Assembly: GCA_051294905.1 (NCBI GenBank)
Contig: CM119372.1
Span: 36,086,001-36,150,000 of the forward strand
DNA length: 64,000 nt
Reading direction: 5' to 3'
From: Botryllus schlosseri
Lineage: Eukaryota
Below the pieces are notes generated by a model that saw only the letters and a list, made by a program, of their open reading frames with translations, was not told the DNA's origin and did no database searches. Below, one piece after another: positions 15,851 through 56,682 of the stretch. Positions within the stretch are counted from its first letter, which is position 1, and every line of letters begins with the position of its first letter. The translations under genes were made by a program, and so were the position numbers.

Positions 15851-16930
15851 TCAAGTGATCGGTAATGCAATGGTACATACACCGTTTCTATCCGGCACCA
15901 GATCATGCTCGTTAAAAATCGCTTGTGGGGTTTGTGACCCAGGGTTCGTTCCTCGTTGACCATTCACACTTTCCGCGCTTCCCGTTTGCTGTCTCTCTTT
16001 CCGCACACGATTACAGGGACGAGCCCAAGGAACAAGTCTCGATTTCCAGTCGTTAGGTATTAAATTGACGCAAGTCAGATTGATGATGAGGTTCAAATGA
16101 TTGACAGAGTACCGGAAATTAGTGGAGATGTGGAAATTCATATACAACAACGCGGTAACAGTGTCTGACACCAAACACAATGCGGTTACAATAGTCACTC
16201 GTTTAATGAGTCGAACATATTTGTGATCGGTGGGGATGTTACAAGTGCGATTATAATATATGGCCTTAGTCAAAGGATACACGAATAGAATCAACATTGG
16301 AAACTGGATTGACCAGGTAGCTAACATTAACGCAAATGTCAATGGGGTTGACTCCCAATTCTGAAAACCTAATGCTATGTAAATCATTGCAAAAATAGCA
16401 ACGGCTGCAACGTACACAAGGAAGAATTTACTGATAAATCTTGTCGTCCCAGTCGACAGATGATTCAACAGAGTACTTTTGTAGATAGCTCTTTGTCTTC
16501 TCCATATGTAAAAATATAGGAGGAGGAGTGCGATGGCACATAGGGACACGATGCAATAATTGGCTGGCAGCAAAAAATCAGGGGCGGGTATCCATGTATA
16601 ATTAGCTCCCGGGTAAGAAGAGTCGAAATTTCGAGAATAATTTGCTCCCAATTTTAACAGTTGTGGTGAAGATTGAACCTCTATGATGTATTCCTTCTCG
16701 TGCGTTGAAATAATGATATCCGACAAGGTGGAGACAATCACTAACGTGGAGCTAAACGCCAGGAGGATGCTCCCGAGACCATTTCTTGAGTCACTGCACC
16801 GACAGCACACATTTTTACGAAGTAAATAAATCCATTGCACAGCAGAAAGGTAGGCTGAGATTACACACCAAATGCATTCAAATCGAATGACGTTGTCCAA
16901 ATCTCCTAACGGAATGAATAGTATGGACAT
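15851..16930 (-). CDS. Orphan 7TM receptor-like protein, paralog 1 (359 aa from the likely ATG at 16930; the open frame extends to 17011)
   Basis: Uninterrupted ORF, seven hydrophobic segments, motifs VQWIY, WRRQRAIY, HLSTGTTRFISK, QFPMLILFVYPL, NLTCVNLIPNDWKSRLVPW. Start chosen by alignment with the paralogs and an upstream splice acceptor at 16988-16989. Confidence 0.88.
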   Translation of the reverse strand: MSILFIPLGDLDNVIRFECIWCVISAYLSAVQWIYLLRKNVCCRCSDSRNGLGSILLAFSSTLVIVSTLSDIIISTHEKEYIIEVQSSPQLLKLGANYSRNFDSSYPGANYTWIPAPDFLLPANYCIVSLCAIALLLLYFYIWRRQRAIYKSTLLNHLSTGTTRFISKFFLVYVAAVAIFAMIYIALGFQNWESTPLTFALMLATWSIQFPMLILFVYPLTKAIYYNRTCNIPTDHKYVRLIKRVTIVTALCLVSDTVTALLYMNFHISTNFRYSVNHLNLIINLTCVNLIPNDWKSRLVPWARPCNRVRKERQQTGSAESVNGQRGTNPGSQTPQAIFNEHDLVPDRNGVCTIALPIT

Positions 16931-19702
16931 GCGGTGTGGGGTCGAAAGAGATAATGAATATATTACGTATATTGCTCTGAAATTGGGCTGGAATACGAAC
17001 ACATACATCATAGATTGTATGCAGTCCGATTACAAACTGCGCCGAACAGTCACCGCGTTATTAATTCTTTGCGGCGCATAACCTAATATATTCCTGAATT
17101 TTAAACACTGACAAAAGCAGACAGCGAGAACATGTTTCCATTATCTGTTACCCTTCGTTGACGATACTTATTGGTGATGGCGCGAATCCTTAAAGGTTCT
17201 TATTCGCCGTCAACACGGACATATGACATCATAAGTTAATCTCAACGCGACTTACGTATTGCATTACCTGTCTATTTGTAAAGGATGATGCCGGTGTAGC
17301 AGTCATTAAGTACGCTGGGCCCAATATGATTAGAAATATGTCACGCACTAAGTGTGACTATATGATGATATAACAACATCTATTTGGTAAAATCTATAGA
17401 GATCTGGGGTGAGGCATAGCATCTCCCTGACCTTACTCACAGTTACTATTGTTGGGTGCTCTGATAACATTTTGAGCCCGCGAACAATTTCGCACCGCGG
17501 TACCCTAATATCATTCGTATTCGCCACTACGCGGGTGTAAATGCTCATGTACTCATTCTAGCCCGTTGTCAGGCCAAGCGCTTAGCGGGAATAGAGGCGT
17601 GGAATTGTATTACTCAATTATACTATCCGCAACAATGTCAAGCAATATTAAAGAGAATCACGAATTTATCGACCGTCCTAGGTTTATTTTTAGACGAAAT
17701 GATAGACGGTAGGACTTCTGTAAATTGCTGCTATTTAAAGACTATTTTACATCGTACAATCGTCCAGGACACGAAACTCTGAAATATCGAGGTTCGCACA
17801 ACCGTGAACAGAACGTTATCACCTGCGAAACTGCACATCAATATTGAAATCATCGGAAAGCGGTAATGAGAACATGTCCGTAAATGATCGATTTGCAAAA
17901 TCTATTACATATATTCTTTTATTGGACACTAACCTGACGTAATCCTAGCCGCTATTACAAATGTACGCTAATATGCCTGACTTTATTGAATAATCAATGA
18001 TCTAATGAACAAACATTGCCTGGCGCGATGTGTTCATTATCCTTTGATTCATGCAAACTCAAACCAAAACTCACATTAGGCCTTTTAACTATATGCCATC
18101 TAAATTCATTACTAGGTTGTAACCCAATTATGCTATTCTTCGTTTGCCCTTGGGATATTATCCGACTTACAATAACCTCATACACTGGAAAGTGCTTTCT
18201 CCACTAACGTTCCGCTATTAATATGACATCGAACACCGTGTGAGCGCCATCCAACATGTTGGTGTGAAATATAGTCTATTGCTATAGTGGGCGCTGCTTC
18301 CACAGCTCCTTCTTTCGTTTACAAATTAGTGCAGGGAGAGATGTCAAAGTATCGTTATGGTAGTTGCGGAAAATTAAATGCTGTCATTATGAGACAAACT
18401 CGCTAGTACTTTATGAAGCAGTGTGGACAATCGCCGAGTTTTGTCAGTTTTACCGTGTAAACACACAAACTCATAATTATTGGGAAAAACTTTTCGAAAT
18501 TTGATCACAAACCACGCTAGTTATTGTTTTCCTATTTGACGGTTTGCATATCGGTTCTCGGAATAGTCAGCCAAGGCGGTGAAACACTGTCTGAGGTGAA
18601 ATCAATCCCGGTGGGTGCAAATTCAGCTACTGACGTGGAAGTAGGTCGCTGGACTTCGGGGGGAGTTCGTTCACTCTCCGAGACACGTTCGTTTAGAAAT
18701 ATTAAGCGTGACGTGGAGACCAAACATGACAGGGCATGATATACATTCTATTACGGACTTCATCCGTTTGAGAATTTCTATTTATTGCGCAAGTCAAACT
18801 AGCATAGAGAAATCAACATTTCTCATCTAAGACAAGGGGTTCTATACCATTTCACCGTGCTCGCAGGTAAATGTTTAACAAATTAGCGTTCCGGTGAATC
18901 TATGAAATTCAAAATCAACCCTCCTATAGGTTATTTCAAGTAAACGTCTTGTTAAAACAATCAACTGGATTTTGAAGCTTGGTATGTTTAGATTGAATTG
19001 CGACTTCTCTGAAAATAGCGAAAGCATTCACTGAATTGGTTGTTTTCTATTGACATTTCATGAATGACTAATTTCGAACATTTTGCTCCACGAATATTAC
19101 GCAATTTGCAAATTTGTCGCGCACAAAGAGAAGTAAAGTGAAGTGATCTATAAAATATCTGAGCCTCGCCTGTGATAACAACCCGAGTCCATAATATATG
19201 TCAATAACTATCAACCAAGTGCTATTTTCGTGTATAGATTTCCCACATTAAAAATAAATAATGCAAGGCCAATACAACCACTTCCAAGTTACCGAGCCTA
19301 ATGATGTGAAAATCGGTTTTGTTACGCACATTGACAGCGTAGTGAAGCACAGACGATGTGATATGAATTCTGAAATCGCGACGGTCAATGTGTAATTCGG
19401 AGCATATACCATCGCATACAGACGTAGATGTTATGTATTTCCCATGTATAGCTTAGTTGTTGATACTTACCACCACCGTGCGTACCCGGCGTGTAAAGAG
19501 TTCTAATGTACTAAAAATACACATCGTCAACTGAATCAGATGAACTTTCATGCGTTACATATTTTATTTATTATTACTTATTTTGCTTCACAAACCATGG
19601 TCCTCGTCGTACGTCACTGGCGGGATTCATACCGTTTCGGAAGCCCAGAGCAAAATCAATTAACAGAAGATTCACGATTAAAACATAAATCATGTTGGTA
19701 AC

Positions 19703-20254
19703 AAGGGTTGAATTTAAAACAAACGGTGTTTTAAAACGCTTTTTTCAAAACATGTTTTAATTTAAACAAATGCCTTTATAAAAATCAAGCATGTCTAATT
19801 ATGCCATAATTGTGTAAATGCTTTCGTAAAAAACATGTGTTATGATCCTATACGAACGATTTGCACCCAATATCGTCGACGAATACGATGTGGTGTGGCT
19901 GGAACTCTCGAAATCGTCGTCGTTTCAACAGTTATAGCACGTAGATATATATCATTGGTACGGAAAGGGTGTTCTGATGATGAAGACGGCCGTTCGTAAA
20001 AATGCTGCATAACGATGTAGTCATATGGTTAAAGATATTTATGGTCTGAGTATGGCGGTGTTCGGAAGGCCTTTTCGCCGAAAGAGCCATATTTAACATA
20101 TATTTTCAATTGTCAATGTCAATCCACTGTGACGTCACCATTTAATATTCGTGACGTCATGGCTAAAACACCAACAATAAAAAACATGTTTTAAACAAGG
20201 GCTACGTTTTAAACATGTTTGTTTTAAATTGATATTTGTTTTAAATGCAATCCT
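19703..20254. mobile_element. Degenerate hAT-type MITE with AAACATGTTTT repeats
   Basis: AGGGTTG...CAATCCTA ends, repeated AAACATGTTTT near both ends, similar flanks (GTAACA). Confidence 0.5.
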
Positions 20255-20579
20255 ATGTGTAACACATCGCTACGACGATTTACATATTCATAATGAGTAT
20301 AACGCATAGCGAATATTCATGTGATGTTATTGCTGATCGAAATCCAGAACGTTGCGTTGCGTAATTCCCTGCGTATATCTTTCTTTCGACAGACCGGACT
20401 ATTACACGACTCTCTGTCCTGCATGTATACACAGACAACGCATCAACGACGACGGTTTTTTGTTACCGCCCGAACGGTATAATCCACCATAAATTCGAAT
20501 GTATATCAATATATATAAGAACGTCTAGTCATTTCTGAACAACGCACATTTATTGATGCGAATTTTACAGTAGAGTATC

Positions 20580-21500
20580 ACAGCGTGGCACTCTTATCAT
20601 TATTTTACATGCGATGCATGAAAGTCCTCTATCTGGCGTTTCTTGGGAATTGGTTATATGCCAAGACAATGCGTTTACAATCCTTCCATCGGATACTTTG
20701 CTTCGCTGAATAACATAATGGCGTAATGAATATATATTCCGCTATACGGAGCATGAATTATATTATCAAATCCATTTACCAAGAGAACTATCATATCAAG
20801 CCTGTGCCAGAAAAGAAGCTCGTGTATACCAACTAAAAATAGTTCATGAAGCTTAAGCTCTCTCTTCGCCCCGGTTAGTCGAAATTTCATGTCAATGACG
20901 TCATATTTTGTGATACGATTGTTGATATACAATGTTACTTCTAATTGTCTGTTAGTTGCTAACGAGAGAGAGAGAAAGATTATTTAGTTTCATCCAACCA
21001 AAATACATAACAAATAGACGGTGATGATGGTGGTACAGAAAATATACATGCACAATACTCGGTATCATATAGGAATGATCGAAACGACCGTGAAGGTCAA
21101 CTAGTTAAACAGGTACACTCGCCTCTATACAGTCTGGCTGTAAAAATGCTAGTTAAAATAGGAAAATAACAAAGAAATAATGAACGATGGTAGCTAAAGA
21201 TCAAATGATCAGTGAAGCAATGTCAGGTCGAGGTAGATCAAAAGTGTTAATATAACGACAAGAGGTGATTAAGTAAGTCTTTTTTAAATCGATCGCTAGG
21301 CAATTCAAGGATATGTTGTGGAAATGTATTCCAGATGATAGGTCCTGAGTAGTCGATAGATCTCTTAGTTAGGTTGCTATTGGGTGTGGGTACGTAGATA
21401 TTTCCCTTTGACGAAGATTTCATGTAATGGGAGACGATTACTCCTAACGAGAGTCAGCCAAAAATATTAGGGTTCAATTCAATATGAAGATATAGTTCTA
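20580..21500 (+). mobile_element. Decayed Penelope-like element 3' end, interrupted by a LINE fragment
   Basis: 20900-20963 plus 21434-21495 align with 52913-53035 (ATTTTGTGATACGATTGTTGATATACAATGTT...ACGATTAC..CT.ACGAG.GTCAGCC.AAAATATT.GGGTTCA). Left boundary approximate. Confidence 0.7.
20964..21432 (-). mobile_element. 3' fragment of a CR1/L2-group LINE
   Basis: Minus-strand translation GNIYVPTPNSNLTKRSIDYSGPIIWNTFPQHILELPSDRFKKRL, typical of a CR1/L2-group ORF2 C-terminus, followed by a UTR ending in (TC)n. Confidence 0.7.
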
Positions 21501-21704
21501 TTGAAACCATCAAAATATAATTTTCACAATAATTAAAACATTATAATGAATATTTCTTGCAGATCAGTGTGACTTCTGCTGTTTCCTCTTTTAGATACTA
21601 GTTCAGAAATGAGAGACTTCACCTTGGAAAGTGTCATCGTGATACCAATTGACATGTTTGGATTGTTACAGTGTGCTATTGGTTAGTTACTGGCAGTCAT
21701 TTGG

Positions 21705-22871
21705 TTATGAACGAAGCGAAATCTGTCTGACCGCAATGTGATCCGGTTTCTTTGCAACATGAATTGCTCTTCGGTGCACATTAGCAGGACCTGGAGAATA
21801 TCTTTGACGTCTTCCTTGACCGGCTGTCTGGCATATGACGATCCAAGGTACAAGACTTAATTTCCAGTCGGTTCGAATTCGATTAACGCAAATCAGATTG
21901 ATGATTAGGTTCAGATAAATGACTGAGTCGATGAAGTCTTTGAGGACGTTGATTTCTCGAATTAATATCGCCGCAACGGTATCCGTCGTTAAACATATTG
22001 CGGTCAAAGTAGTGACTCTCCGTAGCAGTCGGATGTATTTCTTCTCAGTCCTAATTTTGGATATGCGATTAAAATGTATGGCCTTGAACAGTGGATAAAT
22101 GAATAACGCAAGCATAGGGAGCTGCACTGTCCAAGGATACAGCAATATTACCCACGTAAGTCGGCCGGATGGTACGTACAATGGATCGCTGTGTGACTCC
22201 GACAAGATATACACCGCTGCAAATATGGTGACCGCGGCGACGTAGAGAATGAATAACTTGCTGATGAATCTCGTAACCTTGTTTGAGAGATGAGTCAACA
22301 CCTTTTTACTGTAAATGTCTCTTTGCCTTTGCCAAATCACGCCGTACATTGTCAGAAGCAAACTTTGAATGGAAGTCACCTCGAGAAACATTGTCGCATA
22401 ACGAAAATTAATTAGCTGCGGGCATCCGTCAGGAAGAACACTCCGGTTCAAAGTTGAGGCATCGGAGATAATTCTTTCCACAGAATAGAACTGGAGTAAA
22501 TTGGGTGACTTGCGTCCATATTCAAACGTCCTATTTCCCGATTTCTTTAAATTAGGGTGGGAGATATTCATCGCCGCACTTAAGATCATCCGCACCATCA
22601 ATTGTAAATCGCTCTTCTCGGAAAAGCATTCGCCTTGCATCAACTTCATGGCTAACGCACCCATACCCGATGAAATAGCGACCATGGTGCAGGTAACTGC
22701 CAGAAAAATGCATTGTACTATCATCCTCGTGATCTTACAACAGCGTCGAACATGCGTTCGAAACATATACACCCATTGAACGGTACACATGTAAACAGCT
22801 AGTCCCGAAGCCGCTGATTTGCACGCGATGGAAATGCCGAAATTGGTAAATTGATCATTTATCCAGGACAT
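21705..22871 (-). CDS. Orphan 7TM receptor-like protein, paralog 2 (388 aa)
   Basis: Intact ORF; VQWVY, YGVIWQRQRDIY, HLSNKVTRFISK, PWTVQLPMLALFIYPL, NLICVNRIRTDWKLSLVPW; longest TM2-TM3 loop of the four. Confidence 0.9.
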   Translation of the reverse strand: MSWINDQFTNFGISIACKSAASGLAVYMCTVQWVYMFRTHVRRCCKITRMIVQCIFLAVTCTMVAISSGMGALAMKLMQGECFSEKSDLQLMVRMILSAAMNISHPNLKKSGNRTFEYGRKSPNLLQFYSVERIISDASTLNRSVLPDGCPQLINFRYATMFLEVTSIQSLLLTMYGVIWQRQRDIYSKKVLTHLSNKVTRFISKLFILYVAAVTIFAAVYILSESHSDPLYVPSGRLTWVILLYPWTVQLPMLALFIYPLFKAIHFNRISKIRTEKKYIRLLRRVTTLTAICLTTDTVAAILIREINVLKDFIDSVIYLNLIINLICVNRIRTDWKLSLVPWIVICQTAGQGRRQRYSPGPANVHRRAIHVAKKPDHIAVRQISLRS

Positions 22872-22966
22872 GACTTCAATATCTACTGTAAACGAAATAT
22901 ATGATCACTACTTGTAACATAGCAAAACAAAAAACCTAGTCATACTGATTCTACTACAGCCTAGAT

Positions 22967-23288
22967 CAGTGCTTCCCATCCTTTTTAGACTCATCGCCCC
23001 CTTTTCAAGCTACACACCGATCGTCGCCCCCAAATACTGGGAACCGAAAAATGGGCATACAAACTGTAATCACCGGCGAGTGGACTAAAAAAGGTCAACT
23101 TTTCGGCTCGACCTCAAAATTACACTTCTACAGCTAAATTTTTGTGAGTTGAGTAAAAAAAGGTCATTTCTCCGACTTGACTCAAATATACAGCCGCTTA
23201 AACGCGCCATCGCCCCCTTCGTTATTTTCGCCCCGATAGACCGCCAAATCGCCCTCTGGGGGATAATATCGCCCACGTTGGGAACCAC
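22967..23288. mobile_element. hAT MITE about 95 bp upstream of paralog 2
   Basis: CAGTGCTTCCCA...GTTGGGAACCA; flanking CCTAGAT on both sides; internal TCGCCC repeats. Confidence 0.7.
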
Positions 23289-24804
23289 CTAGATCCTATA
23301 ACGTAAATCCCCCTATCCCGTGAGGGAAAATAGACCAAATTAATACATATATGAATAGATGTATATCCCAAAGGTGCACTCGGTTCCGATTTTGTGTCAA
23401 CCCCGGGAAATCTAAAAAGAGATAGTATCTGAAAACTGAGGACATTACGCCCCGTAACATATATTTATACGAATTAATGTATTTGACTCGTTTTGACCAA
23501 TTGCAATACAGGTGAAAGCAAAATTTGGTAGATACATCTACTCGACCCCGTGTATTTACATACATCTGCATACTGCATCTCCAGTAAATATGGTCCCGCG
23601 CGGTATGGCTCCAACATTGTTTTGCGGGAATACTGTGATTTGAATTTTCGGAAAAAGCAGTGCCATTACGATGTTTTCAGTGGGCCACAGAGCTGGCATG
23701 ACATAAAGTCAGAGCTGCCGTGCAGCCCCTTTCTATAAGATTTGTCTTTGCTTAGAAGCGCAATAATCTCTTGAAAATTACTCTCGAACTGGTACGTAAT
23801 GGGATGTCATGGTGGCGCTCGAGCTAGATCAGACCAGTCATCAACTTCCCAATTTTTGCGGTTTGGCTTTGATTGAACGTTATTGGCCCGACGTCAGGTT
23901 TTAATTGATTTGATGGACCATTAGAAAAAAGGTTGAAACCCCTGAATGTATCATTTTTAAAGTGCTAAAATAATTCGCAAAGCGATTCCGTGTCGCGTGC
24001 ACCTCCGTCTATACATAAACGCTACATTTAACTACACGATGAGACACTGCTCATATGGCGTGCACCGTGTGATGACTAATTACTAATCCGACAATCACAT
24101 GTATGACTCAAATGAAATTTGTACGTGTTGTGCGTGCTTACGATCAGCGTTACATTGAGTCGAGCCGCTCAAAATGCGACAGTGCTCAAAATCCGACAGT
24201 GCCATTGAACGATTTGCAGTATCATCGCGTATAAACAAGTTGTATAACGTTGCGATAATCAAGTTGTAAAACGTCTTTACCTGAGATGCTTTGTTTGTAT
24301 CTAATATTATCTCTAGGTTCTGGGGTAGAGAACACATTACTAATAAAATCGATTATTAGGATGCTGACGGAATTGACTACAAAGAGAATGTTTCATTTCA
24401 CGCTAACACGCGATGTGCACGCTTTCCTTCGATTGAATCAAAATGTCTCGGTGCAACTCTTTCGAATTCTCCGATTCGCATTCGTATAATGACTGTGCAC
24501 TGTGCAGCTGTGTGCGTGCATTGTCCAGTGTTCATTTTACGGCATTGGCAGAAGTCCGAAGAGTCCCTGCTCCTATTCTGACTGACTAGCGCACAAATAC
24601 CCAACGGTACAAAATCTATACCAGTCAATCAGGCAGCATGACACATTCAGTTTTTCTTTTGATCTCTAGCATTTGGAATAAGGAATACGCTGCTTTGAAA
24701 CCTCTTGAGTATAGCGACTGATCTATTATACCTATACTGGTTTAATTGGAAGCAGATAGCATGATGTAAATGTAAAAGATAAAATATACTTATATATTCT
24801 GGCG

Positions 24805-25663
24805 CAGTGGTTCTCAAACTGCATTGGGGCGTGGAAGCGTCTGAAGAGGGCGCGAAGTCGCCTGAGTGAAATGAGGTTTATTGAACTCAGAATGAGTTTA
24901 ATTAGTGCTGACACTTTCAAGTTTCAAGCACGTCAATAATTCTAATTATATACGATTTGAAAAGCCAGAGTGGCCTAGTTGCCACACGCCGATGCTAGAT
25001 TGTGACTGACACGGGACCTTGCACTGTGTCACATGCCATGCATAATATGTCTTTTGAAACTAAGAAACAAGGCTTTATATCGAAGTGATTTATAGCGTCC
25101 AAATAGTCGTTCCGAGTATACTCAATTAGGACACATACTGTAAAGTGCCACTCAAGAAGGTCAATTTATCGCAGCCAAAAAGTAATCAAATAAATTATTC
25201 TCTCGCCGAACGAACACCAGCTACCGGTTGAGAAAAATGTTAGTCCCGTGACGATGTGCCAAGTTTGAATGGCGTGTGGAACGCGCAATTGGTTTATTTT
25301 GATTTAGCAAATGGTCGGATAGGTTTGAGCCAAGCCCAAGCCAGGAAATAGAAGGGATAGACAGCAAAATCGCTTGAATATTTATGTTCTATACGTGCTA
25401 CCATCGCACATGATTATAGTTTTGACAAAATATTCAACTGCACGCGATTTACCTCCTGCTCATGATTATTGCTCCATGTATAGTCTGAAAATCACATTCG
25501 GGAGGTCTCTCAACAGCCATAACCTTCTATGCCATCACCCCATGAGTTCAGATTGCAAATAGTCTTGTTTCCCTTTTAAAGATTTTTTGATATGACGATA
25601 AGCGGGCGTCAAATCTTTCATCGTCATCAAGGGGGGCGTGTCCAAAAATGTTTGGGAACCGCG
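24805..25663. mobile_element. hAT MITE
   Basis: CAGTGGTTCTCAAAC...GTTTGGGAACCGCGG; near-TSD TTCTGGCG/TTCTGGAG. Confidence 0.6.
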
Positions 25664-28600
25664 GTTCTGGAGATAGTGAAAGTAGGATCAATGTTGCGAT
25701 GCTATTCAGTAACGACCTCACTATATATACTTTATAGTTTTATACGAATTACGTATCGGTACATATGTACATGGTACAGGAGACTGAATATTTAACAGGC
25801 ACAAATATTTTTGTTAAATAAACAGCAGCTTCAATTATGGACATAACAAATCTGATAAGCAATATCATCGAATTTACTGATAAAGTCATTGTAGAAATGA
25901 TGCGGTCCACTAGCCCTAGGTCGCTTTCTGCACGCCAGTTATCGCATCGTACCTGTCTGTCTAATCGTAGTGCTTACCTCATATATATACAATCCTATAT
26001 GGCACGCGCAGAAGATTATATGCCATAATTAGATCTCTACCATTATTTTGAGAATGGACACAATAGTTAAAAGTAAATATTTCTAGGACTAGAGGGAAAA
26101 TGCCTGACTCGTAAGAGGCTGCAACAGTTATTTTTAAAATACCCAGAATTATATTTATGTTAGTAAACTGGTTAATCTACTTTTTTACGTTTATTCAATA
26201 TGTATATATATATAGAATAAGACCTGACACATCGAGCATAATGTCTGATAGTATTTGATTAAGGGGGTGGTGGTGGCAACGACGTGATGAGAAAATAATC
26301 GGATCCCGTTCGTCTTGAGTTTCGCTGTTATCTTTGCACATATGTTAAATAATAGCACTACCAGAACATCATTCACGATCCCCATTATTATCATGTTTTT
26401 TTCAGAGCTGTTGTATTCTGATAATATACATAGGTATGGATCACGTATACATGAGTCTCAAACATGATGCGCGTGCTGACTATCAGGATACATAGCCCAA
26501 GTGTTGTTGATTTTTCATTCCTCATAAGAACAAGACAGGGTGTCCTAATTAGGAGATTGAGGATTCTGTGGTCCTTCTAGATTCGATATGGAAACATGTG
26601 AATAGAACAATTCGGGCACTTAATCTTCGCGATATATGGGTGTTGTCGAGATTAGACAATCGCAGACTATTACTATACCAGCTATATTGGTCTTCACGGC
26701 GTCGAGGAGACGACGAAGTAAGTCATTAGCAATCTGTTTTTGGACACCCAACGACCTTTTCTAACGTTCGTGTCAATTCACTATTTAGTTAGTACATTAT
26801 ATGGCGTCATCGGTAGGACCCGAATCCAATCTTACAAGAATGTAAGGGAAATGGCGCGCCAAGTATCGTAAAGAATAATGACGCTAGAAGAACACCAACG
26901 GTAAAGGAGAAACTCCTTGAACGCTAGTTTTCCGGACCAATACCTGACATGTCCATCTCGCCTTCCGACACATGACGCATGCCGTCCTTTTATATTATCT
27001 TCTTTTACTTTTCATTCAGTGTGCATGCCTACTTTTCTACATCGGCTAGGCCTGGTGGGTATCTGATTTCGAAGATTACTCCAAGTCGTTTCGACACCTT
27101 CCTATCTTTCATGCATCGAAATCTTGTGGTGTATTGAAACGAGTTACTTTTGCAGAAGCGCAATAATCAAAAGGAAAATCAAGTGACGTTGTTGGGGATA
27201 AACACAGAGATGTATTTGAGCGTACATTGATTGATCACAAGACTTTATTGCGTCTCTTCTGGAGCAACTTTAGCCGAGAACTTGGGCATGCTGTGAAACC
27301 GCACAGTTGGTATACTCGAACAATCCATCCAGCAGGCGCTAGGCGGTCATTGTAAAAAGACTGTCGGGGTGGGAATGTACATCCTCAGATTCTGCAGCGA
27401 TGATAAGACTGTCGTGTTACCGAACAGCTAACAAGTAGTATCCTACCTTCAAGCATTTATCCACGACACTAAGCCGAAGAGTTGTAAGACATTTTGCAAC
27501 AGATGAGCTACGGCAGAGATAGGAGAAATCAGAGCGAAGAAGTCAGAGAAATCAGAGCTGAGTTCAAAGAAAGCAAACAAGGAGCAGGTGTAAACTTGAC
27601 TTATTTCATGAGGATCTGACGAAGATGAATATAACTCCGAACGTGTAGTGTGGGGGGGGGATGGCAATCGCTTGCGAAAACTGACCTGACAAGTGTATGT
27701 TATTCAAAGTCGTCATGCCGTAAACATGACATAACGCTGAGCTGTAAAAATGTCATCTTTTCCAAAATTTAACTCTAATTTGTCTGGAGAATCGTATCAA
27801 AAGACTTAACAGTCGCCGATCCCGAAAATACGAATGTTGTTACAAAATTTTCAGTTCCATCGCAAAAGACATAATTTGGAGGGTTGAGAAATTTAGCAAC
27901 TTCTACACTTAAAAACGTACTACAGCAGAACCTGTATGAGTATACTCCAACAAAATTTACATCTTTCATCACAACATCCGTTGTAATGAAATATGTATTG
28001 AACTCGGAGACTTTCCGGGTGCCTTTTTTTTCATTTTAGCAATAATTACTATAAAACAATCGCTCGCGATTGTCATTTCCCTCATCTGACACAACATCAC
28101 GATACGGTCAAATGATACTGGTGGGATCAAATCGCATGCAGACCGCATGATTCGTGTCCAACTGTCCGTCAACTTCTACAAATCTTCGACAGTATCTTCT
28201 GTTTCCAGAGAGGCAATCCTTGTACCTACTTATTAAGTTTTTCTGTATATGTCTGTGTTGAGTAAATGGCCTTGCAGTTGACAGCTAGAAGTAAGATTCG
28301 GATTTTAGAATATTGGCCGGGTTCTAATAAGAATATGTATTATTATGAGCCCATGTATTGAAGTCATTGACATAATTTCATCACAGTAAAGTCCATGAGA
28401 ATATGATAGTTTCACTTATGAGAGTGATTCAAACCTCCTGGGATATGTATTTTCATTGACAAATAAAAGAGTGAAAGCAAAGTAACCGAGAAAGTATATC
28501 ATACAATAACCTTCTGAAGCAGTACGCTAGCGTCAATAAATGAAATTGAATATTGCGAGGCAATTTAAATGACCGTAGCAAAGGCTTGTTGCCACCTTGA

Positions 28601-29515
28601 TCTGGAGTCTGAACGAACATTATAGTCCGCTTTTCCCACTGTTACAGTGTATTAGCGGTGTCGTGTTGTAGGTCTTTTCTCCTGACTCGACGAGCAGAGT
28701 GTATTCAGCTGAGCGACAGGTATTCTTAGAAGCAGGGGAGACGTTATGTGAGAAGTCCGCATCCGCCATTCTCTTGTTTCAACTATATCGTGACATTAGT
28801 GACATAGCGCCAGCGTTTGTGTATAACCGGGAATTAGCGAACGGCCGTGACTATTTCACGTATCGATGTATATGCCGCGAACGATGGGGAAAACAAAGTC
28901 ATTTTATTGTTATACTTTCCTGGCAGTGATAGTAGATTATATTACGTGTGTCGTTTCTGGAAGCAGCACGGGAATGGGAGCCGATAACATGGCCATAGAA
29001 CAGCTTCTGCGCTTGACATATTTTGGCTGTATCCTGAACGACTCAACACATGATAACAAACCAATGAGCTTTTCATGATGAATTTACATATCAGCTAGGC
29101 AGACCCATACTCATTGGTACGCGGAATATGACAAATAGTTACAAGAACAATGACTGTAACAAAGAAATCATTAACCGAAAACGCCAGAAATTTGTTTTGC
29201 CGTCAGCACTAGTTGGTATGATATCTAACGCGTGCCGCACTCTTGCTCATTTCCTCTACACTCTCGTTTTTCTTCGTCCCGACTGTCTTTCGTAGCATGC
29301 GTTTGAGAAGAAACACAAAAAGAGAAATAGTCGAGTGAATTGTCTGTGCTTATAGATATAACTCTGCAGCAGTTGTTGTATCATGGGCTTTTCCCACACC
29401 CCAGCTAGTTGCGTCAGCATAACAATCACCAACTTGACACATAGCAGCAACCTAACCACTATATCGTCCTATGTCAGTAGTTTTTAACCTTTAGTAACCC
29501 GCGGAACACTTACGC

Positions 29516-30627: not shown

Positions 30628-31401
30628 ACTTACGCTATTCTGCGAGTCTTCGCGGAACGCCAAATTCGATGAATAAGAGATATAAAAATCTACTAATATA
30701 CGCAGCTAACCAGACATCTAATAGAGTACTGGTGCACAAAAGGAACTATGCATCAATGGAGTGTTAAAAGAACGAAACCATTAAAATATAATTATCAAAC
30801 AAAACGAAACATGTTAATGAATATTTCTTACAAATTAGTGTGACTTCTGCTGCAGTTTCCTCTCAGATACCAGTTCAGAAATAAGAGGACCTTGCAAAGT
30901 GTCATCGTATTGTTCGGTAGAAACGCAACAGCATGATATCAATTGCTTAACTACAAATGAACTTATTTATATTGGACATAGATTTGGCATTTCAGGTTGC
31001 CGGTTTTAGATTTTGGACCAAAACCTTTCCGGCGTACGCCACTGCACACGACGTACCACCGAAACAGTCACCAATTTGAATAGTGTTAGTGCCTAATTGC
31101 CTGCAAAAAAATGATGGCCAAGACGAGCGTATCGACATAAATCATATGTACGAGTTGCTTGTGTGTGTTAACCCCACGGAACCCTTAACACTGTGATCCG
31201 TGAAACACCAGTTACAAACCATTGGTCTATGTGCATAAACGCTGGTCATAAATCATCATTCCAGGTGAACTGACCAAGTCAGTGAAATATTTCTGGAGTT
31301 GAAGGTAGCACATAAGCCTACGCATATATTTGATGCGGAAATATTCGTCGTGTACTGAGTGTTTCCACTTTTAAGCCTCACAACCAGAACCCGACCGATT
31401 A

Positions 31402-34025: not shown

Positions 34026-34034
34026 AAAGCCGTA

Positions 34035-34973
34035 TTATGGTTGCTGTACAATACCACATTCCGCATCCAACTTTTGTTTCCTTGTCGCGCGAAAGGGTCC
34101 ACATGACGAGACCCACGGCACCAGCCTCAATTTCCAGTCCGTCGGAATCAGACTGACGCAAATCAGATTGAAGGTGACGCTTAAATGAAGTAAGGCGAAT
34201 CTGAGTTGCAGTAAGACAATCTCGTTTAAATATGAAAGCGCCATAGCTGTATGGGTCAGCATGCATGCCGCTGTCAGGGCGATGACTCGTTTCATTACAC
34301 GAGCATATTTACGGTCGGTTTTGATATTCGAGGAGCGATTTCGCTGTAACAGTCTGGCCAGCGGATAGACGAACAAGAGTAATAACGGAAACTGGACGCC
34401 CCAAGGGCACAGCATCAGCAACACGAATATATACAGGGAACTCGACTCCTTATAAGTCGACTGCAAACCGTACACGCAACATACTGCGGATATGATGGCC
34501 GCTGCAACGTATATATATAGATATTTACTGAGGAATCGTGTTACGTTATTCGACAAATGAGCCATGGCCTTTTTACGGTACATAGCTCTCTGTCTTATCC
34601 AGATGACACCGTGCGACACAAGAAGTGTGGCTACACAAAATATAGCCGTAACATGACCAAGTTGATCTTCCAAAACTCTGAATGAGTCGCATCTACTGGT
34701 TGTATTGTTGTTCGGCAGTCCCGAACTATTCCCCATATTAGCCATGGCGTGGCAATTCTTGATGTATACGATAGTTACAATCTCCAACGCCTCCGAAATA
34801 ATGACAAAGGTGCAGCCGGCCGCCAGAAGTGTGCTCTGAATAAAATCGATCGTAATCTTCCAGTTGTAGCGGAGATGTCGGCGAATAAAATAGATCCATT
34901 GCACGGTGCAGAGGTAAAGGGATATTGCGCACAATGCATATTCGAAACGAAGTGCTGTGTCTGGATAGTTCAT
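34035..34973 (-). CDS. Orphan 7TM receptor-like protein, paralog 3 (312 aa)
   Basis: Intact ORF; VQWIYF, HGVIWIRQRAMY, HLSNNVTRFLSK, PWGVQFPLLLLFVYPL, NLICVSLIPTDWKLRLVPW. Confidence 0.9.
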   Translation of the reverse strand: MNYPDTALRFEYALCAISLYLCTVQWIYFIRRHLRYNWKITIDFIQSTLLAAGCTFVIISEALEIVTIVYIKNCHAMANMGNSSGLPNNNTTSRCDSFRVLEDQLGHVTAIFCVATLLVSHGVIWIRQRAMYRKKAMAHLSNNVTRFLSKYLYIYVAAAIISAVCCVYGLQSTYKESSSLYIFVLLMLCPWGVQFPLLLLFVYPLARLLQRNRSSNIKTDRKYARVMKRVIALTAACMLTHTAMALSYLNEIVLLQLRFALLHLSVTFNLICVSLIPTDWKLRLVPWVSSCGPFRATRKQKLDAECGIVQQP

Positions 34974-47516: not shown

Positions 47517-49855
47517 TGTGGCGACACCATGCGGCACCACCACTGCGGTTATCGAAGCGTACAGTGCTTTCTCTTATTTTCATGTCGCTTTGTATATAAA
47601 GCCATTGATTGTGTGTTTTCGTCAGTTCGCTCAAGTGCTGCTTACAATAAACTTGTTACCCGCTTAACTGGTGACCCCGACGTGTCCAGAGATCATCCAG
47701 CCCTTGGTCCTCACCTTTACACATGGTTCCGAAGTCATCCGGGGGCTGGAGACCCTGCGGGGACTATCGGCGTCTAAACGCTGCAACAACACCGGACCGT
47801 TACTCAATTCCGCATATCCACGACTTCACCGCTCGCTTAGCAGGGTGTCGCATTTTTTCGAAAGTGGACCTCGTCAGAGGATACCACCAAGTCCCGGTAG
47901 CACCCGCTGACATCCCCAAAACCGCGGTTATCACAGCTTTTGGACTATTCGAGTTCCTTCGCATGCCATTTGGTCTAAAGAACGCCGCCCAGACGTTTCA
48001 ACGACTAATGGACACCGTCTGTCAAGATTTACCATTCGTGTACGTTTATCTCGATGACATCTTGGTAGGTAGCCCAAACTTCGAGACGCATCTCGAGCAT
48101 CTTCGCACCCTCTTTACGAGACTGTGCGATCACGGCTTAATTATCAACAAAGAAAAATGTCAATTTGGGAAGGACAAGCTTGAGTTCTTGGGTCACATCG
48201 TGGACCACCGAGGAATCGAACCCTTGCCGACCAAAGTCGACGCAATCACGCAATTTCCGCCTCCCAAAACCCTCAAAGCTCTGCAAGAATTCAATGGGAT
48301 GATCAACTTCTATCACAGATTCATCCCTGCAATTGCAGACATCATGAGGCCGCTTTATCGTGCGCTGGCCGGCAAGCCACGAAAATTAGTCTGGGACCCC
48401 GAGGTAGAAAAAACTTTGAATGCAGCAAAGGAAGCGTTAGCCAACGCAACAATGTTGCACCATCCAAGATGCGCTGCTAAAACCGCCCTCACTGTCGACG
48501 CTTCACGAACGGCAGTTGGGGGAGTCCTCGAACAACTGGTCGACGGGGAATGGTGTCCTCTGGCCTTTTTCAGTCGGCAGCTTCGTAAGCCTGAGACAAA
48601 ATATAGTGCTTTCGACCGAGAACTCTTGGCGCTACATTTGTGCATCAGGCATTTCCGATATTTCCTAGAGGGACGCCCTTTCACAGCTTTTACCGACCAC
48701 AAGCCGCTCACCTACGCGTTCACGAAACCTTGGTAGCCTTGGTCAGCACGGCAACAGCGGCACCTTTGCGCGATTTCCGAATATACCACGGATGTCCAAC
48801 ACATCAAAGGGAAAAGCAACACGGTCGCGGACGCACTTTCGAGGCCAACGATCGCTACTACCGGCCAACAGCCGACGCTTTTGAACCTAAACCTCGAAAA
48901 CTTAGCTAAAGCACAAGAAACCGACGAGGTACGGGCTTATCGCACTGCGATTACAAACCTACAACTCAGGGACATTCCTATCGGCAACTCGGCAGTCACG
49001 CTGCTATGCGATATCTCCTGCGGACAACCTCGTCCTGTGGTCCCCAAACCTTGGAGAAAAAAAGTTTTCGAAACAATCCACGGGTTGTCACACCCCTCCA
49101 TCCACAAGCAAATGGTTTGGTGGAACGGTTTCACCGACATTTGAAAAGCGCGTTAATGGCCCGTTTGACCGATGCAAACTGGGTGGACCACCTTCCGTGG
49201 GTTTATCTCGGGATCCGGACCGCTCCCAAGGAAGATCTGAAGACCACATCAGCCGAACTGGTTTACGGGACTACACTCAACGTACCTGGTCAGTTTATCT
49301 CTCCGGAAGCCACACAAGAAGCAGAAAAGTTTATGCCGTCGCTGCGAGAAACGCTTCGCAAGTTACTGCCTACGTCAATGTCCGGGCATGGCAATACACG
49401 AGTATTAATTCCAAATTGTTTGACAGATTGCAGTTACGTGTTCGTGCGGCGAGATACACACCGACCTCCACTGACGAAACCGTACGACGGTCCCTTCAAA
49501 GTCCTCGAAAGGACCACAAAGACATTCAAGCTTCAAGTTGGTGGAAGGGAAGAGACGATTTCTATCGACCGTTTGAAACCGGCGCACGTGGACCTCTCCA
49601 TGCCAGTTCCAGTCGCTCAACCGAAGCCACGAGGAAGACCACGACGTCACACTCGGCCTCCGCAACGTTACCAGGCCTGAACTGCCCGCTTCTGGAGGGG
49701 GCTATGTGGCGACCCCATGCGGCACCACCACTGCGGTTATCGAAGCGTACAGTGCTTTCTCTTATTTTCATGTCGCTTTGTATAGAAAGCCATTGATTGT
49801 GTGTTTTCGTCAGTTCGCTAAAGTGCTGCTTACAATAAACTTGTTACCCGCTTAA
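47517..49855 (+). mobile_element. Gypsy/Ty3 LTR retrotransposon (CsRN1-like), internally deleted
   Basis: 151-bp LTRs at 47517-47667 and 49705-49855, 4-bp TSD GTAT, PBS TGGTGACCCCGACGTG (47669-47684), PPT GGAGGGGGCTA; RT (YLDD), RNase H ([17 protein letters not shown]) and partial integrase with GPY/F motif; no gag or protease. Confidence 0.96.
47688..49680 (+). pseudogene. pol: Disrupted pol (RT-RNase H-integrase) of the Gypsy element
   Basis: [14 protein letters not shown]...[15 protein letters not shown]...YVYLDDILV; in-frame TAG at 48734-48736; jump from HGLSHPS to HPQANGLVERFHRHLK near 49098 removes most of the integrase zinc finger and core. Confidence 0.9.
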
Positions 49856-51724: not shown

Positions 51725-52030
51725 GTGTGATGAAACTATGTGTTAAGTCTGTATGGTCTGAAATGAATTAAAGTAGAAAGCAAGTAGGCTATAATTTTCA
51801 ATATAATATATTAAATGCTGCATTTGTAAAAAAAAAAAGGAAACGTACGACTTAGCCTAGATACAATTCACTTCATACGCGACGTTAAATCTGTAGAACA
51901 GATGATTTTGCAACCTGCATTTCGTTTCTATCGCAGATGTTTGCACTATCGGTGAACTTTTCATTTGACGCTGACATGGTGTCATGTTCAACAAACCGCA
52001 ATATTCTAACTGAAGCAAGACTGCCTGGAA

Positions 52031-52488: not shown

Positions 52489-52514
52489 CTGCGTGAACAT
52501 TGGTTCTTATAACA

Positions 52515-55449: not shown

Positions 55450-55704
55450 TATTATCGGGATAGTTATAACGTTGTTTCCACTTATATGGTTATGTCGCAA
55501 ACAGGCTAGAGCTTATTTGCGTCCTACACGCCAATCATCACCATTCAAAACTAAGTTTGCGCTGACCAACTCCATTTTACAGCCTTCCGATTGACCGGCT
55601 ATCGCAGAAACTATTTGTTGGAAAATACATTGTCAGACAGCTGACTACTGTGGTATTCTAGTAAAATAGAGATAACACACCGATATTGATATAATATACT
55701 TAGA

Positions 55705-56682
55705 CTAATTGTGAAAGGCGTACATTTTCGTCACGTCCTGCATGAAGTCCGCAATTGTTTTCGGCGGTTCTATCACATGGGTCGCTGTTGGCAGCGGAAT
55801 GGCGCGTTGCATGGGCGGCGCTTCTCTGCCGCATTGATTGCGTCGACATAAACGAATCCACGGAACGAGCCTTGACTTCCAATCGTTCGGGATTAAATTG
55901 GCGCATGTCAAATTGACAATCAAGTCCAAGTGAAACAGCGTAAATCTAACAGCACTAGAGGAGTCCACAAATGATGCCGCCATCACCATATCGGAAGCTA
56001 CGCATATCGCCGAATAGATCGCGACTCTCTTGAATAGTTGCACGTATTTACGGTTTGTCTGGATCTTCGATGTGCGATTGAAATGGATGACTTTTATCAA
56101 GGGATAGATGGATAGAATCAGCAACGGTAACTGAATAGTCAATGGAAATAACATCAAGATGAGAGCCAACGGGATATTATTCCAGTCGCCAAACCCGAAT
56201 ACCCAACCTAACATTAGAGACGCCATCATCACCTCATATATGATAAAATATTTACTGATGAATCTAGTGATATTCGTTGTTAGGTGAACCAAGTAGGGTA
56301 TCCGATAGATCGTTCTCTGCCGTATCCATATAACTCCGTATACCATGAAGATCACTATTACACATACAAGTAGATTCCCATCCGCTAATGAACGTTCAAT
56401 GTTCGGGGAAAAGCAGCTTTCATTTCGTGGAATCGTAGATGTATTAGATGTGCCCGAGACGCATTTCTTGGTGTACGCCAAAAACACCATCTCCATCACT
56501 ACCGAAACAAAAAGTAACGTGCAGCTGGCCGCCAATAGAATGTTTTGAATCAAGCTTCTATTAATCGTACAGTTGCGGCTGACATGCTTCCGAATGAAGT
56601 AAATCCATTGTGTACAGAAAAGGTAGACGGTAAATGCTACAAGTACCGATTCCAAACCAATCGCCACGTCGATATCTGCCAT
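55705..56682 (-). CDS. Orphan 7TM receptor-like protein, paralog 4 (325 aa)
   Basis: Intact ORF; TQWIYF, YGVIWIRQRTIY, HLTTNITRFISK, PLTIQLPLLILSIYPL, NLTCANLIPNDWKSRLVPW. Confidence 0.9.
   Translation of the reverse strand: MADIDVAIGLESVLVAFTVYLFCTQWIYFIRKHVSRNCTINRSLIQNILLAASCTLLFVSVVMEMVFLAYTKKCVSGTSNTSTIPRNESCFSPNIERSLADGNLLVCVIVIFMVYGVIWIRQRTIYRIPYLVHLTTNITRFISKYFIIYEVMMASLMLGWVFGFGDWNNIPLALILMLFPLTIQLPLLILSIYPLIKVIHFNRTSKIQTNRKYVQLFKRVAIYSAICVASDMVMAASFVDSSSAVRFTLFHLDLIVNLTCANLIPNDWKSRLVPWIRLCRRNQCGREAPPMQRAIPLPTATHVIEPPKTIADFMQDVTKMYAFHN

What the first reader, a model, noticed from the sequence alone, without database searches (positions are those of the whole stretch)
15851..56682. 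Cluster of four intact single-exon orphan 7TM genes: candidate new chemoreceptor family
Seen: four co-oriented ORFs of 312-388 aa, each with seven hydrophobic segments, a very short N-terminus, and basic loops after TM1, TM3, TM5 and TM7. They share motifs I cannot assign to a named family: QWxY closing TM1; WxRQRxxY closing TM3 where rhodopsin-class receptors have DRY; HLxxxxTRFxSK; QxPxLxLxxYPL; KYxxxxxRV; NLxCxxxIxxDWKxxLVPW in place of NPxxY. All four frames are free of stops and TE insertions although the surrounding DNA is full of TEs. Established: the positive-inside rule gives N-out/C-in, the GPCR topology and opposite to insect OR/GR channels; clustered, divergent, intronless 7TM paralogs are the hallmark of animal chemoreceptor repertoires (OR, V1R, T2R). 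Inference: a lineage-specific receptor expansion under selection, possibly chemosensory.
Basis: partly seen in the sequence, partly recalled or inferred. Interest (0 to 1): 0.85.

Follow-up and report, generated by a model that had tools for sequence, protein, structure and literature searches.

The report
Large orphan seven-helix receptor gene family
Four neighbouring genes belong to a family of at least 139 sea-squirt-type genes for seven-helix membrane receptors that match no catalogued family by sequence but are predicted to fold most like vertebrate bitter-taste receptors, which makes them candidates for these animals' unidentified chemical sensors, although no expression or ligand has been seen.

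Summary

- **Family size:** they are part of a family of at least 139 loci in this 495 Mb genome. 8 loci have stops in every match.
- **Sequence orphan:** there is no Pfam, PDB-sequence or profile-profile link to class A, TAS2R or any other family.
- **Topology:** N-out/C-in is supported.
- **Canonical GPCR trait:** deep branches keep a TM3 Cys exactly 25 residues before the conserved Arg, plus an ECL2 Cys, in 81 of 147 sequences.
- **Selection:** it is purifying overall, with the extracellular loops evolving fastest. One-to-one orthologue-like partners exist elsewhere.
- **Not shown:** expression was not detected in three bulk RNA samples, and G-protein coupling and chemosensory function are untested.

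Verdict: these are real genes of an uncatalogued GPCR-fold receptor family. The chemoreceptor reading is plausible but open.

The parts
15851..17011 (-). Family gene 1. The maximal ORF is 386 aa. The probable coding sequence is 15851-16930 (359 aa, starting at Met28).
   Evidence: ORF. The N-terminal 27 residues are unaligned to the paralogues. Met28 and the 359-aa length were verified.
16977..16984 (-). Splice-acceptor-like AATTTCAG, 46 nt upstream of Met28 of gene 1. The same motif lies about 42-47 nt upstream of the ATG in the sister clade.
   Evidence: Inference only; no RNA evidence.
21705..22871 (-). Family gene 2 (388 aa), with a long TM2-TM3 extracellular insert. It is sister to the seven-gene cluster on contig C1.
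22886..22892 (-). Splice-acceptor-like TTTACAG, 14 nt upstream of the ATG of gene 2.
34035..34973 (-). Family gene 3 (312 aa). This is the protein modelled first. It has a one-to-one partner, P0003 (68% identical), in another assembly.
55705..56682 (-). Family gene 4 (325 aa). It has a one-to-one partner, P0002 (72% identical). dN/dS is 0.35 against the next gene of the array, which lies just beyond the window end.

Best explanation
The four ORFs are functional genes of a large, lineage-restricted family of seven-helix cell-surface receptors with the GPCR fold. By sequence the family belongs to no catalogued class.

The short N-terminus and the three extracellular loops face outward. Chief among them is a long, glycosylated, Cys-containing TM2-TM3 loop that the model builds as a helical hairpin. 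These parts diversify between paralogues and most likely form the ligand-recognition surface.

The conserved cytoplasmic face is the signalling side and most likely engages heterotrimeric G proteins. It comprises W-x-R-Q-R-x-x-Y at the end of TM3, the H-L-x4-T-R-F-x-S-K loop, a basic TM5-TM6 loop, and D-W-K-x-R-L-x-P-W followed by a Cys after TM7.

The array grew by old tandem duplications, and each gene has been kept since. Detection of external or internal small chemical cues is the most likely biological role.

What is shown: the genes are real, under selection, have this topology and are predicted with confidence to adopt this fold. What is inferred: receptor function, G-protein coupling and chemoreception.
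For: - **Intact ORFs and shared motifs**.
- **Family size:** at least 139 loci, of which only 8 have stops in every match. 28 of 30 close loci and 20 of 20 distant loci carry intact ORFs.
- **Purifying selection:** dN/dS is 0.14-0.4 for pairs with dS above 0.7, and 0.35 for window gene 4 against its neighbour.
- **Regional pattern:** the extracellular loops evolve fastest (ECL2 1.60, ECL3 0.79, ECL1 0.71). ICL2, ICL3 and TM5-7 are at 0.25-0.40.
- **Age of the array:** window genes 3 and 4 pair one-to-one with database proteins (SH-aLRT 100 and 98). The four genes fall in four sublineages, so the array predates that split.
- **Topology:** K+R per sequence is 21.1 on the predicted inside against 8.6 outside, and sequons are in ECL1.
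- **Canonical GPCR geometry:** 136 of 147 sequences have W-x-R-Q-R. 81 of 147 have a Cys exactly 25 residues before its first Arg, and all 81 also have a Cys in the ECL2 window. This matches C3.25/R3.50 and the TM3-ECL2 disulfide (the numbering is recalled).
- **mRNA processing signal:** acceptor-like sites lie within 90 nt upstream of the ATG in 26 of 48 genes, against 7-14 of 48 in five control windows.
- **Circumstantial:** the genome has at least 11 full-length single-exon G-alpha genes with divergent receptor-contacting C-termini.
Against: - **No expression seen:** two of the three genes examined had zero RNA reads in three bulk RNA-seq samples (6-13% of each run read). The third had depth 0.1-2 only near its 3' end, in one run where 98% of laid reads were partial, repeat-like matches.
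- **No sequence homology to any GPCR class:** nothing in Pfam, nothing in PDB sequences, and profile-profile scores at the level of reversed controls.
- **Motifs missing:** the class A microswitch motifs (acidic residue of DRY, NPxxY, CWxP) are absent.
- **Window clade differs:** the window's own clade lacks the TM3 and ECL2 cysteines.
- **Relaxed young paralogues:** those on contig C1 have dN/dS of 0.5-1.0, compatible with relaxed constraint as well as diversification.
- **Competing candidates:** the genome has many canonical single-exon class A GPCRs in clusters, which could be the chemoreceptors instead.
Confidence: 0.6

Rival explanations
1. Same receptor architecture, but not chemosensory. 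The family would sense endogenous ligands or microbial or self/non-self cues, for example in blood cells, gut or tunic, as an immune-type or physiological receptor repertoire.
For: Rapid change of the extracellular loops and young, fast-evolving tandem clusters also typify immune receptor families. Earlier notes on this genome report many expanded immune-type receptor families (unchecked). No sensory expression is shown.
Against: There is no expression in the three bulk RNA samples examined, although immune or gut cells are usually well represented in bulk tissue (tissues unknown). One-to-one orthologue retention is more typical of chemoreceptor or physiological receptors than of fast-turnover immune genes. 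Nothing tested here separates the two readings decisively.
Confidence: 0.2
2. A seven-helix membrane protein family that does not signal through G proteins. Candidates are a transporter, a channel, a lipid hydrolase of the PAQR type, a trafficking protein of the TMEM87/GOST type, or a retinal-binding rhodopsin.
Against: For the better model, no microbial rhodopsin is in the top 50, and GPCRs of classes T, A, C and D fill the list. The consensus has no conserved Lys within TM7 for retinal. N-out topology is opposite to PAQR (recalled). No Pfam hit to the rhodopsin, HlyIII or Lung_7-TM_R families at E <= 1 in 150 members. At least 139 tandemly expanded paralogues with diversifying outer loops are atypical for enzymes or carriers.
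Confidence: 0.12
3. True evolutionary kin of the vertebrate T2R/V1R (class T and ORA) receptors. The family would be the tunicate branch of that lineage, not merely a look-alike.
For: TAS2R14 is first and second for two independently modelled members that are about 27% identical. 14 of the top 15 realigned chains are class T. The two groups share a gene build: single coding exon, about 300 aa, very short N-terminus, tandem arrays, no DRY/NPxxY. The AlphaFold2 weights predate any solved T2R (recalled), so the likeness is not memorised.
Against: The TAS2R and V1R HMMs do not match any member. The margin over class A is only 1-3 Z, and TAS2R4 scores 17.0, below the best class A receptor. Compact receptors with short loops align more fully, which inflates Z. 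The deep branches carry a TM3-ECL2 cysteine pair, which T2Rs lack (recalled). No V1R/ORA structure or predicted-structure library was available for comparison.
Confidence: 0.1
4. Chance ORFs or decaying retrocopies without function.
For: No transcripts were seen. Some young pairs have dN/dS near 1.
Against: The chance of one 312-codon open frame is about 1.5e-9. 48 of 50 examined loci are intact. dN/dS is well below 1 for older pairs. Motifs are conserved across 147 sequences. Orthologue-like partners exist elsewhere.
Confidence: 0.02

Closest known systems
Vertebrate bitter taste receptors, TAS2R (class T GPCRs; TAS2R14 8xql/8rql, TAS2R46 7xp4/7xp6)
   Different: There is no sequence similarity: the TAS2R HMM finds none of the loci. 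The signature motifs differ (W-x-R-Q-R, D-W-K-x-R-L-x-P-W). The largest outer loop is TM2-TM3, not ECL2. The deep branches have a TM3-ECL2 Cys pair. T2Rs are reported only from jawed vertebrates (PMC10691231, passages read).
Class A (rhodopsin-like) GPCRs, Pfam 7tm_1
   Same: Seven-helix fold with N-out topology. A conserved Arg at the cytoplasmic end of TM3 lies 25 residues after a TM3 Cys that co-occurs with an ECL2 Cys in 81 of 147 members. The TM5-TM6 loop is basic, and a Cys follows the helix-8-like segment.
   Different: 0 of 142 relatives and 0 of 150 members reach the 7tm_1 cut-off. Reciprocal HMM searches between this family and 20 class A genes of the same genome give no hit at E <= 10. 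hhalign probability is 0.4-2.1%, at control level. There is no acidic residue before the Arg, no NPxxY and no CWxP.
Nematode chemoreceptor families (Str, Sra, Srg and others) with their expanded G-alpha set
   Same: They are large, lineage-restricted, tandemly clustered 7TM families, mostly without a clear sequence link to rhodopsin GPCRs (PMC3963977, abstract seen). They are accompanied by a lineage-specific G-alpha expansion (recalled for nematodes; seen here). An automatic label 'Serpentine receptor class gamma' sits on the nearest atlas cluster.
   Different: There is no significant match to any nematode family HMM: one sub-threshold Srd and one sub-threshold Sre hit among 142 relatives. 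Nematode genes are intron-rich (recalled). This is an analogy, not kinship.
V1R/ORA vomeronasal-type receptors
   Same: Single coding exon, about 300-350 aa, short N-terminus, and sister group of T2Rs (PMC10691231).
   Different: No V1R HMM hit was obtained (scan all of Pfam). No solved V1R structure appeared in the searches, so the fold could not be compared.

Membership tests
Class A rhodopsin-like GPCR (Pfam PF00001 7tm_1) | Sequence match to the 7tm_1 profile above the curated cut-off | tested here: not met
   No hit for the four window proteins at E <= 10. 0 of 142 relatives are over the cut-off, with 2 sub-threshold hits. 1 of 150 members hits at E <= 1. None of the 150 listed genome-wide 7tm_1 matches (of 157) lies at a family locus.
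Class A rhodopsin-like GPCR (Pfam PF00001 7tm_1) | Profile-profile homology to class A genes | tested here: not met
   hhalign of 48 or 81 family sequences against 20 class A genes of the same genome gives probability 0.4% and 2.1%, with scores of 18 and 24 against reversed controls of 19-27. Reciprocal hmmsearch gives no hits at E <= 10.
Class A rhodopsin-like GPCR (Pfam PF00001 7tm_1) | E/DRY at the TM3 end, NPxxY in TM7, CWxP in TM6 | tested here: not met
   TM3 ends in W-x-R-Q-R: the Arg is kept and the acidic residue is absent. TM7 reads N-L-x-x-N-x-x-C-V. TM6 has no CWxP.
Class A rhodopsin-like GPCR (Pfam PF00001 7tm_1) | Cys at the top of TM3 paired with a Cys in ECL2 | tested here: inconclusive
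   Both cysteines are present, with the TM3 Cys exactly 25 residues before the Arg, in 81 of 147 family sequences. The window's own clade lacks them. The disulfide itself was not modelled.
GPCR superfamily (fold level) | Seven-helix bundle with GPCR helix order, N-terminus outside | tested here: met
GPCR superfamily (fold level) | Coupling to heterotrimeric G proteins | not testable with these tools
This needs cell-based signalling assays.
Class T GPCR / TAS2R (Pfam PF05296) | Sequence match to the TAS2R profile | tested here: not met
   No hit. The genome-wide TAS2R search gave 6 weak matches (E 0.012-2), none at a family locus.
Class T GPCR / TAS2R (Pfam PF05296) | Closest structural neighbour among solved receptors | tested here: met
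Class T GPCR / TAS2R (Pfam PF05296) | Phylogenetic placement within or beside the T2R+V1R clade | not testable with these tools
   No alignable sequence similarity exists, and no library of predicted T2R/V1R structures was at hand.
Nematode serpentine chemoreceptors (Srg, Srd, Sre and others) | Match to any of the Pfam nematode chemoreceptor profiles | tested here: not met
   Only sub-threshold hits: Srd E 0.003 and Sre E 0.0007, one protein each among 142. Srd hits 1 of 150 members.
Microbial (type I) rhodopsins | Conserved retinal-binding Lys in TM7 and a match to the family profile | tested here: not met
Animal chemoreceptor repertoire (functional category) | Sparse expression in sensory cells and response to external chemicals | tested here: inconclusive
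   Three bulk RNA samples show no reads on two genes and only traces on one.

The most novel reading that the evidence does not exclude
This family is the tunicate branch of the lineage that gave vertebrates their T2R bitter-taste and V1R/ORA pheromone receptors. If so, class T-type receptors arose before the tunicate-vertebrate split and diversified into more than a hundred genes in sea squirts. The family would then be the long-sought tunicate chemoreceptor repertoire, possibly read out through the lineage's own expanded set of single-exon G-alpha proteins.
Probability: 0.12. Interest if true: 0.85.

Novelty: new variant of a known kind. Interest (0 to 1): 0.66.

Why it matters
Tunicates are the closest living relatives of vertebrates. 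A review reports that searches found no orthologues of vertebrate OR, V1R or V2R genes or of insect or nematode chemoreceptors, that TAAR orthologues are disputed, and that alternative receptors must exist (PMC7776563, passages read).

A family of at least 139 intact genes with a GPCR fold, invisible to every profile-based GPCR census, is a concrete and testable candidate for that gap.

Its structural likeness to bitter-taste receptors also bears on where class T receptors came from. These are currently traced only to jawed vertebrates (PMC10691231).

Even if the role is not chemosensory, this would be a new sequence class within the GPCR fold, with its own signature motifs. It is accompanied by an unusual expansion of G-alpha genes.

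Tried and rejected
- **Complex prediction.** The window receptor was paired with a single-exon Gq-like G-alpha. The verdict was 'no answer': score 0.48 against 0.32 for one control. This is no evidence either way.
- **Sequencing runs.** No RNA holder was listed. Run X1, guessed to be RNA, covers genes and intergenic DNA alike at low depth, so it behaves like DNA.
- **Word-indexed protein searches.** They reached only 1 and 3 proteins.
- **Cluster look-up.** All 10 relatives looked up were unnamed, so the taxonomic range of the 328 relatives is unknown apart from an atlas label 'Chordata'.
- **Atlas search restricted to named clusters.** It gave only DUF7703 at 0.85, below the useful range.
- **PDB sequence searches.** They gave nothing or spurious hits (MFSD2A, CD20).
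- **Foldseek.** No match had E <= 0.001 for either model, although all listed rows are GPCRs.
- **Earlier-findings look-ups by sequence and by words** found nothing.
- **Flanking signals.** Poly(A) signals were not enriched (14 of 48 downstream against 15 of 48 upstream). TATA-like boxes were not enriched either (31 upstream against 27 downstream).
- **Possible bridge to class A.** Weak census hits next to class A clusters were suspected. The three loci I could fetch are plain family members, with no class A signal.
- **Tree.** The careful tree search did not finish, so the quick tree is reported.
- **Literature.** Searches found no description of the family. Subscription journals and supplements were not searched.


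Full report
**Observation.** One search lists four ATG-initiated ORFs on the minus strand at 15851-17011 (386 aa), 21705-22871 (388 aa), 34035-34973 (312 aa) and 55705-56682 (325 aa). Each has only its terminal stop. Their alignment shows 37-38% identity to the first sequence and 59 invariant columns. A 312-codon open frame has a chance probability of roughly 1.5e-9 at this composition (my estimate).

The intergenic DNA is repeat-rich. An ORF at 47723-48736 encodes reverse transcriptase plus RNase H. Intergenic bins reach a k-mer depth of 190-5144 in a DNA-like run, against 1-5 over the genes.

**Is it a known family by sequence? No.**
- Pfam gives nothing near a cut-off for the four proteins at E <= 10.
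- A profile of the four found 328 proteins (E <= 0.001) among 1.84 billion representatives. I scanned 142 of the best 150 against Pfam. None reached a gathering score, and the only GPCR-related sub-threshold hits were 7tm_1 (two proteins), Sre (one) and Srd (one).
- Over 150 family members at E <= 1, no Pfam family was hit by more than 3 members, and 7tm_1 by one.
- Profile searches against all PDB chain sequences gave no hit or only spurious ones (MFSD2A, CD20).
- In the window's own genome, the TAS2R HMM gave six weak matches. None of them, and none of the 150 listed 7tm_1 matches (of 157), lies at a locus of this family.
- Profile-profile comparison with 20 single-exon class A genes from the same genome gave probability 0.4% (48 family sequences) and 2.1% (81 deep-branch sequences). 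The scores of 18 and 24 compare with reversed-sequence controls of 19-27.
- Reciprocal HMM searches between the two sets gave no hit at E <= 10.
- Three family loci that lie beside class A clusters turned out to be ordinary family members.

**How big is the family, and is it alive?** The genome is 495.5 Mb in 219 contigs, and the window is C2:36086001-36150000. I merged three six-frame searches with divergent members. The merge gives 139 distinct loci on 15 contigs. 8 have stops in every match and 15 have a stop in at least one match. This is a lower bound, because each search scored only 127-137 of 140-224 candidates.

The largest cluster, 13 loci at C2:36.10-36.31 Mb, contains the window. 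28 of 30 close loci and 20 of 20 distant loci hold intact ORFs of the family.

Earlier notes of this scan call the genome sea-squirt-like. I checked this only indirectly. The atlas labels the nearest clusters Chordata. Two GH6 matches lie over the curated cut-off, and GH6 is, as I recall, confined among animals to tunicates.

**Selection.** Nei-Gojobori dN/dS for the 45 closest pairs ranges from 0.14 to 1.02.
- Pairs with dS above 0.7 lie at 0.14-0.43.
- Window gene 4 against the next gene of the array gives 0.35.
- The young seven-gene cluster on contig C1 gives 0.39-1.02.

Pooled over 13 pairs, the predicted extracellular loops change fastest (ECL2 1.60, ECL3 0.79, ECL1 0.71). ICL2, ICL3, TM5, TM6 and TM7 plus the following helix are at 0.25-0.40. 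The pairs are not independent and the loop segments are short.

A quick maximum-likelihood tree puts the four window genes in four sublineages of one clade of 32 rows (SH-aLRT 100). The careful search did not finish. Gene 3 pairs with database protein P0003 (support 100; 68% identical, against 41% for the nearest paralogue). Gene 4 pairs with P0002 (support 98; 72% identical). The array is therefore old, and its members were retained one-to-one in another assembly. I take that assembly to be a related species, though its source is unnamed.

**Topology and fold.** Mapped onto the family alignment, K+R density is 0.20-0.29 in the loops after TM1, TM3, TM5 and TM7, and 0.06-0.10 in the others. 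That is 21.1 K+R per sequence inside against 8.6 outside. N-glycosylation sequons concentrate in the TM2-TM3 loop at 1.89 per sequence. This supports N-out/C-in. A crude hydropathy scan found 7 segments in only 13 of 28 members, and 5-6 in the window genes.

AlphaFold2 gives seven long helices plus a short helix after TM7:
- The 312-aa window protein, with 29 sequences: pLDDT 84.2, pTM 0.80.
- A 284-aa distant member, about 27% identical, with 147 sequences: pLDDT 91.4, pTM 0.88.

Foldseek found no match at E <= 0.001, but all 50 listed rows for each model are GPCRs.

The Foldseek-independent search over 48,161 representative chains gave the following.
- **Model 2:** TAS2R14 scores 20.1 (rmsd 3.5, 256 of 285 aligned) and 19.3. 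TAS2R46 scores 18.2, a designed GPCR-like fold 18.2, and the best class A receptor 17.2. No microbial rhodopsin is in the top 50.

So the fold is a GPCR fold and the nearest solved structures are bitter-taste receptors. The margin is small, however, and compact receptors align more fully. The tool also warns that helical bundles have a high Z background.

**Traces of canonical GPCR architecture.** 136 of 147 family sequences carry W-x-R-Q-R at the cytoplasmic end of TM3. 81 have a Cys exactly 25 residues before its first Arg, and no other offset occurs more than twice. All 81 also have a Cys in the ECL2 window. This is the spacing of C3.25 and R3.50 and the TM3-ECL2 disulfide pair of canonical GPCRs (numbering recalled).

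The window's clade has lost both cysteines. Instead it carries two Cys in the long TM2-TM3 loop. The best, non-significant hhalign alignment places both cysteines on their class A counterparts. All four window proteins have a Cys a few residues after D-W-K-x-x-L-V-P-W. Many GPCRs are palmitoylated at that position (recalled; inference).

**Gene structure.** Splice-acceptor-like motifs (TTTYAG, TTTACAG and similar) lie within 90 nt upstream of the ATG in 26 of 48 genes. The figure is 7-14 of 48 in five equal windows further upstream. 27 strict motifs fall in the last 50 nt, against 0-8 in the other 50-nt bins. Many of these genes are paralogues, so the counts are not independent.

Gene 2 has TTTACAG 14 nt before its ATG (22886-22892). 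Gene 1 has AATTTCAG (16977-16984) inside its unaligned N-terminal extension, 46 nt before Met28, which is therefore the likely start. Spliced-leader trans-splicing is common in tunicates (recalled). So 'single coding exon' is safer than 'intronless'.

**Expression.** No run is on record as an RNA holder. I laid one contig run and three raw bulk RNA runs on window 15400-35399, which covers three genes. 12.9, 6.9 and 10.0 million records were read, which is 6-13% of each run.
- Genes 2 and 3 had essentially no RNA depth: at most 0.07 in any bin, and zero in most bins.
- Gene 1 had depth 0.1-2.2 only, in one run.
- 95-100% of all laid RNA reads were partial matches on repeats.

This neither shows nor excludes sparse expression.

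**G proteins.** I confirmed at least 11 full-length single-exon G-alpha ORFs: six on C1, two on C9, two on C15 and one on C7. Their extreme C-termini diverge strongly. This parallels nematodes, where chemoreceptor and G-alpha families both expanded (recalled), but it is circumstantial. The complex-prediction job gave no verdict and is not used as evidence.

**Literature.**
- A 2020 review states that searches found no tunicate orthologues of OR, V1R or V2R genes or of insect or nematode chemoreceptors, that TAAR orthologues are disputed, and that alternatives are probably used. The candidates it cites are two ordinary class A receptors (PMC7776563, passages).
- The Ciona GPCR census lists no olfactory or TAS2 genes (PMC2396169, passages).
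- T2Rs are traced to the jawed-vertebrate ancestor, as sister of V1R/ORA, with none found in lamprey or hagfish (PMC10691231, passages).
- The passages I searched in two styelid genome papers did not discuss this family.
- Six searches found no description of it.

**Conclusion.** The genes are real, selected and numerous. They encode N-out seven-helix proteins predicted with high confidence to adopt a GPCR fold closest to class T receptors, yet they have no detectable sequence kinship to any class.

The most likely mechanism is a surface receptor with a diversifying outer face and a conserved G-protein-facing inner face. I give 0.6 to this reading as a whole, and about one in three to a specifically chemosensory role.

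I rate it a new variant of a known kind: an uncatalogued sequence class within the GPCR fold. Its interest comes from the open question of tunicate chemoreception and from the possible bearing on the origin of T2R/V1R-type receptors.

Noticed in passing
L071-L081 (G000 C1:14.63-14.69 Mb and 20.18 Mb; C9:16.14-16.15 Mb; C15:18.97 Mb; C7:2.02 Mb): At least 11 full-length single-exon G-alpha ORFs (355-375 aa) exist besides the multi-exon G-alpha genes. Their receptor-contacting extreme C-termini differ widely (for example ...EYNLGNA, ...DEYHL, ...RDFHL, ...DDIPV, ...EQCQI, ...NVFGSG).
   Followed up: partly
G000 C2:37.1-39.3 Mb, C4:9.0-9.3 and 22.2-22.4 Mb, C8:6.40-6.53 Mb, C12:17.67-17.98 Mb and others: A separate, large repertoire of canonical class A GPCR genes with single coding exons sits in tandem clusters (157 matches; only 147 of 681 candidates were scored). 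Most of the 20 I extracted have NPxxY but lack a standard DRY. They are rival chemoreceptor candidates.
   Followed up: partly
window 47723-49680 (+): These are LTR-retroelement pol remnants. One ORF carries RVT_1 and RNase H domains (47723-48736). An adjacent 224-aa ORF (49006-49680) has no Pfam hit at E <= 0.001. The GC content of this segment is 0.50.
   Followed up: partly
window 37597-38805 (+): A 402-aa ORF lies in the most GC-rich part of the window (GC 0.518 at 38-40 kb) and has no Pfam hit at E <= 0.001. Its nature was not resolved.
   Followed up: no
window 19400-21400, 22740-23400, 26740-27400, 29400-34075: These are high-copy interspersed repeats (k-mer depth 190-5144 in run X1). 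They attract partial RNA-seq reads on both strands in all three RNA runs, with sharp loose-end boundaries near 20896-20937 and 27077-27109.
   Followed up: no
G000 C2:36.10-36.31 Mb: Within the 13-gene array, the six genes at lower coordinates are on the minus strand and the seven at higher coordinates on the plus strand. The two halves are therefore transcribed away from a point between 36.163 and 36.173 Mb.
   Followed up: no
G000 C7:26014823-26015695 (+) and 26053070-26053942 (-); C15:15148923-15153690 and 15172841-15177608: Pairs of family loci have identical scores (inverted on C7, direct on C15). These are either very recent segmental duplications or assembly duplicates.
   Followed up: no
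G000 C9:15025585-15025875 and 15068570-15068854 (-): Two glycoside hydrolase family 6 matches over the curated cut-off lie in open frames of 545 and 531 aa, about 43 kb apart. This fits a duplicated tunicate cellulose-synthase-type gene.
   Followed up: no
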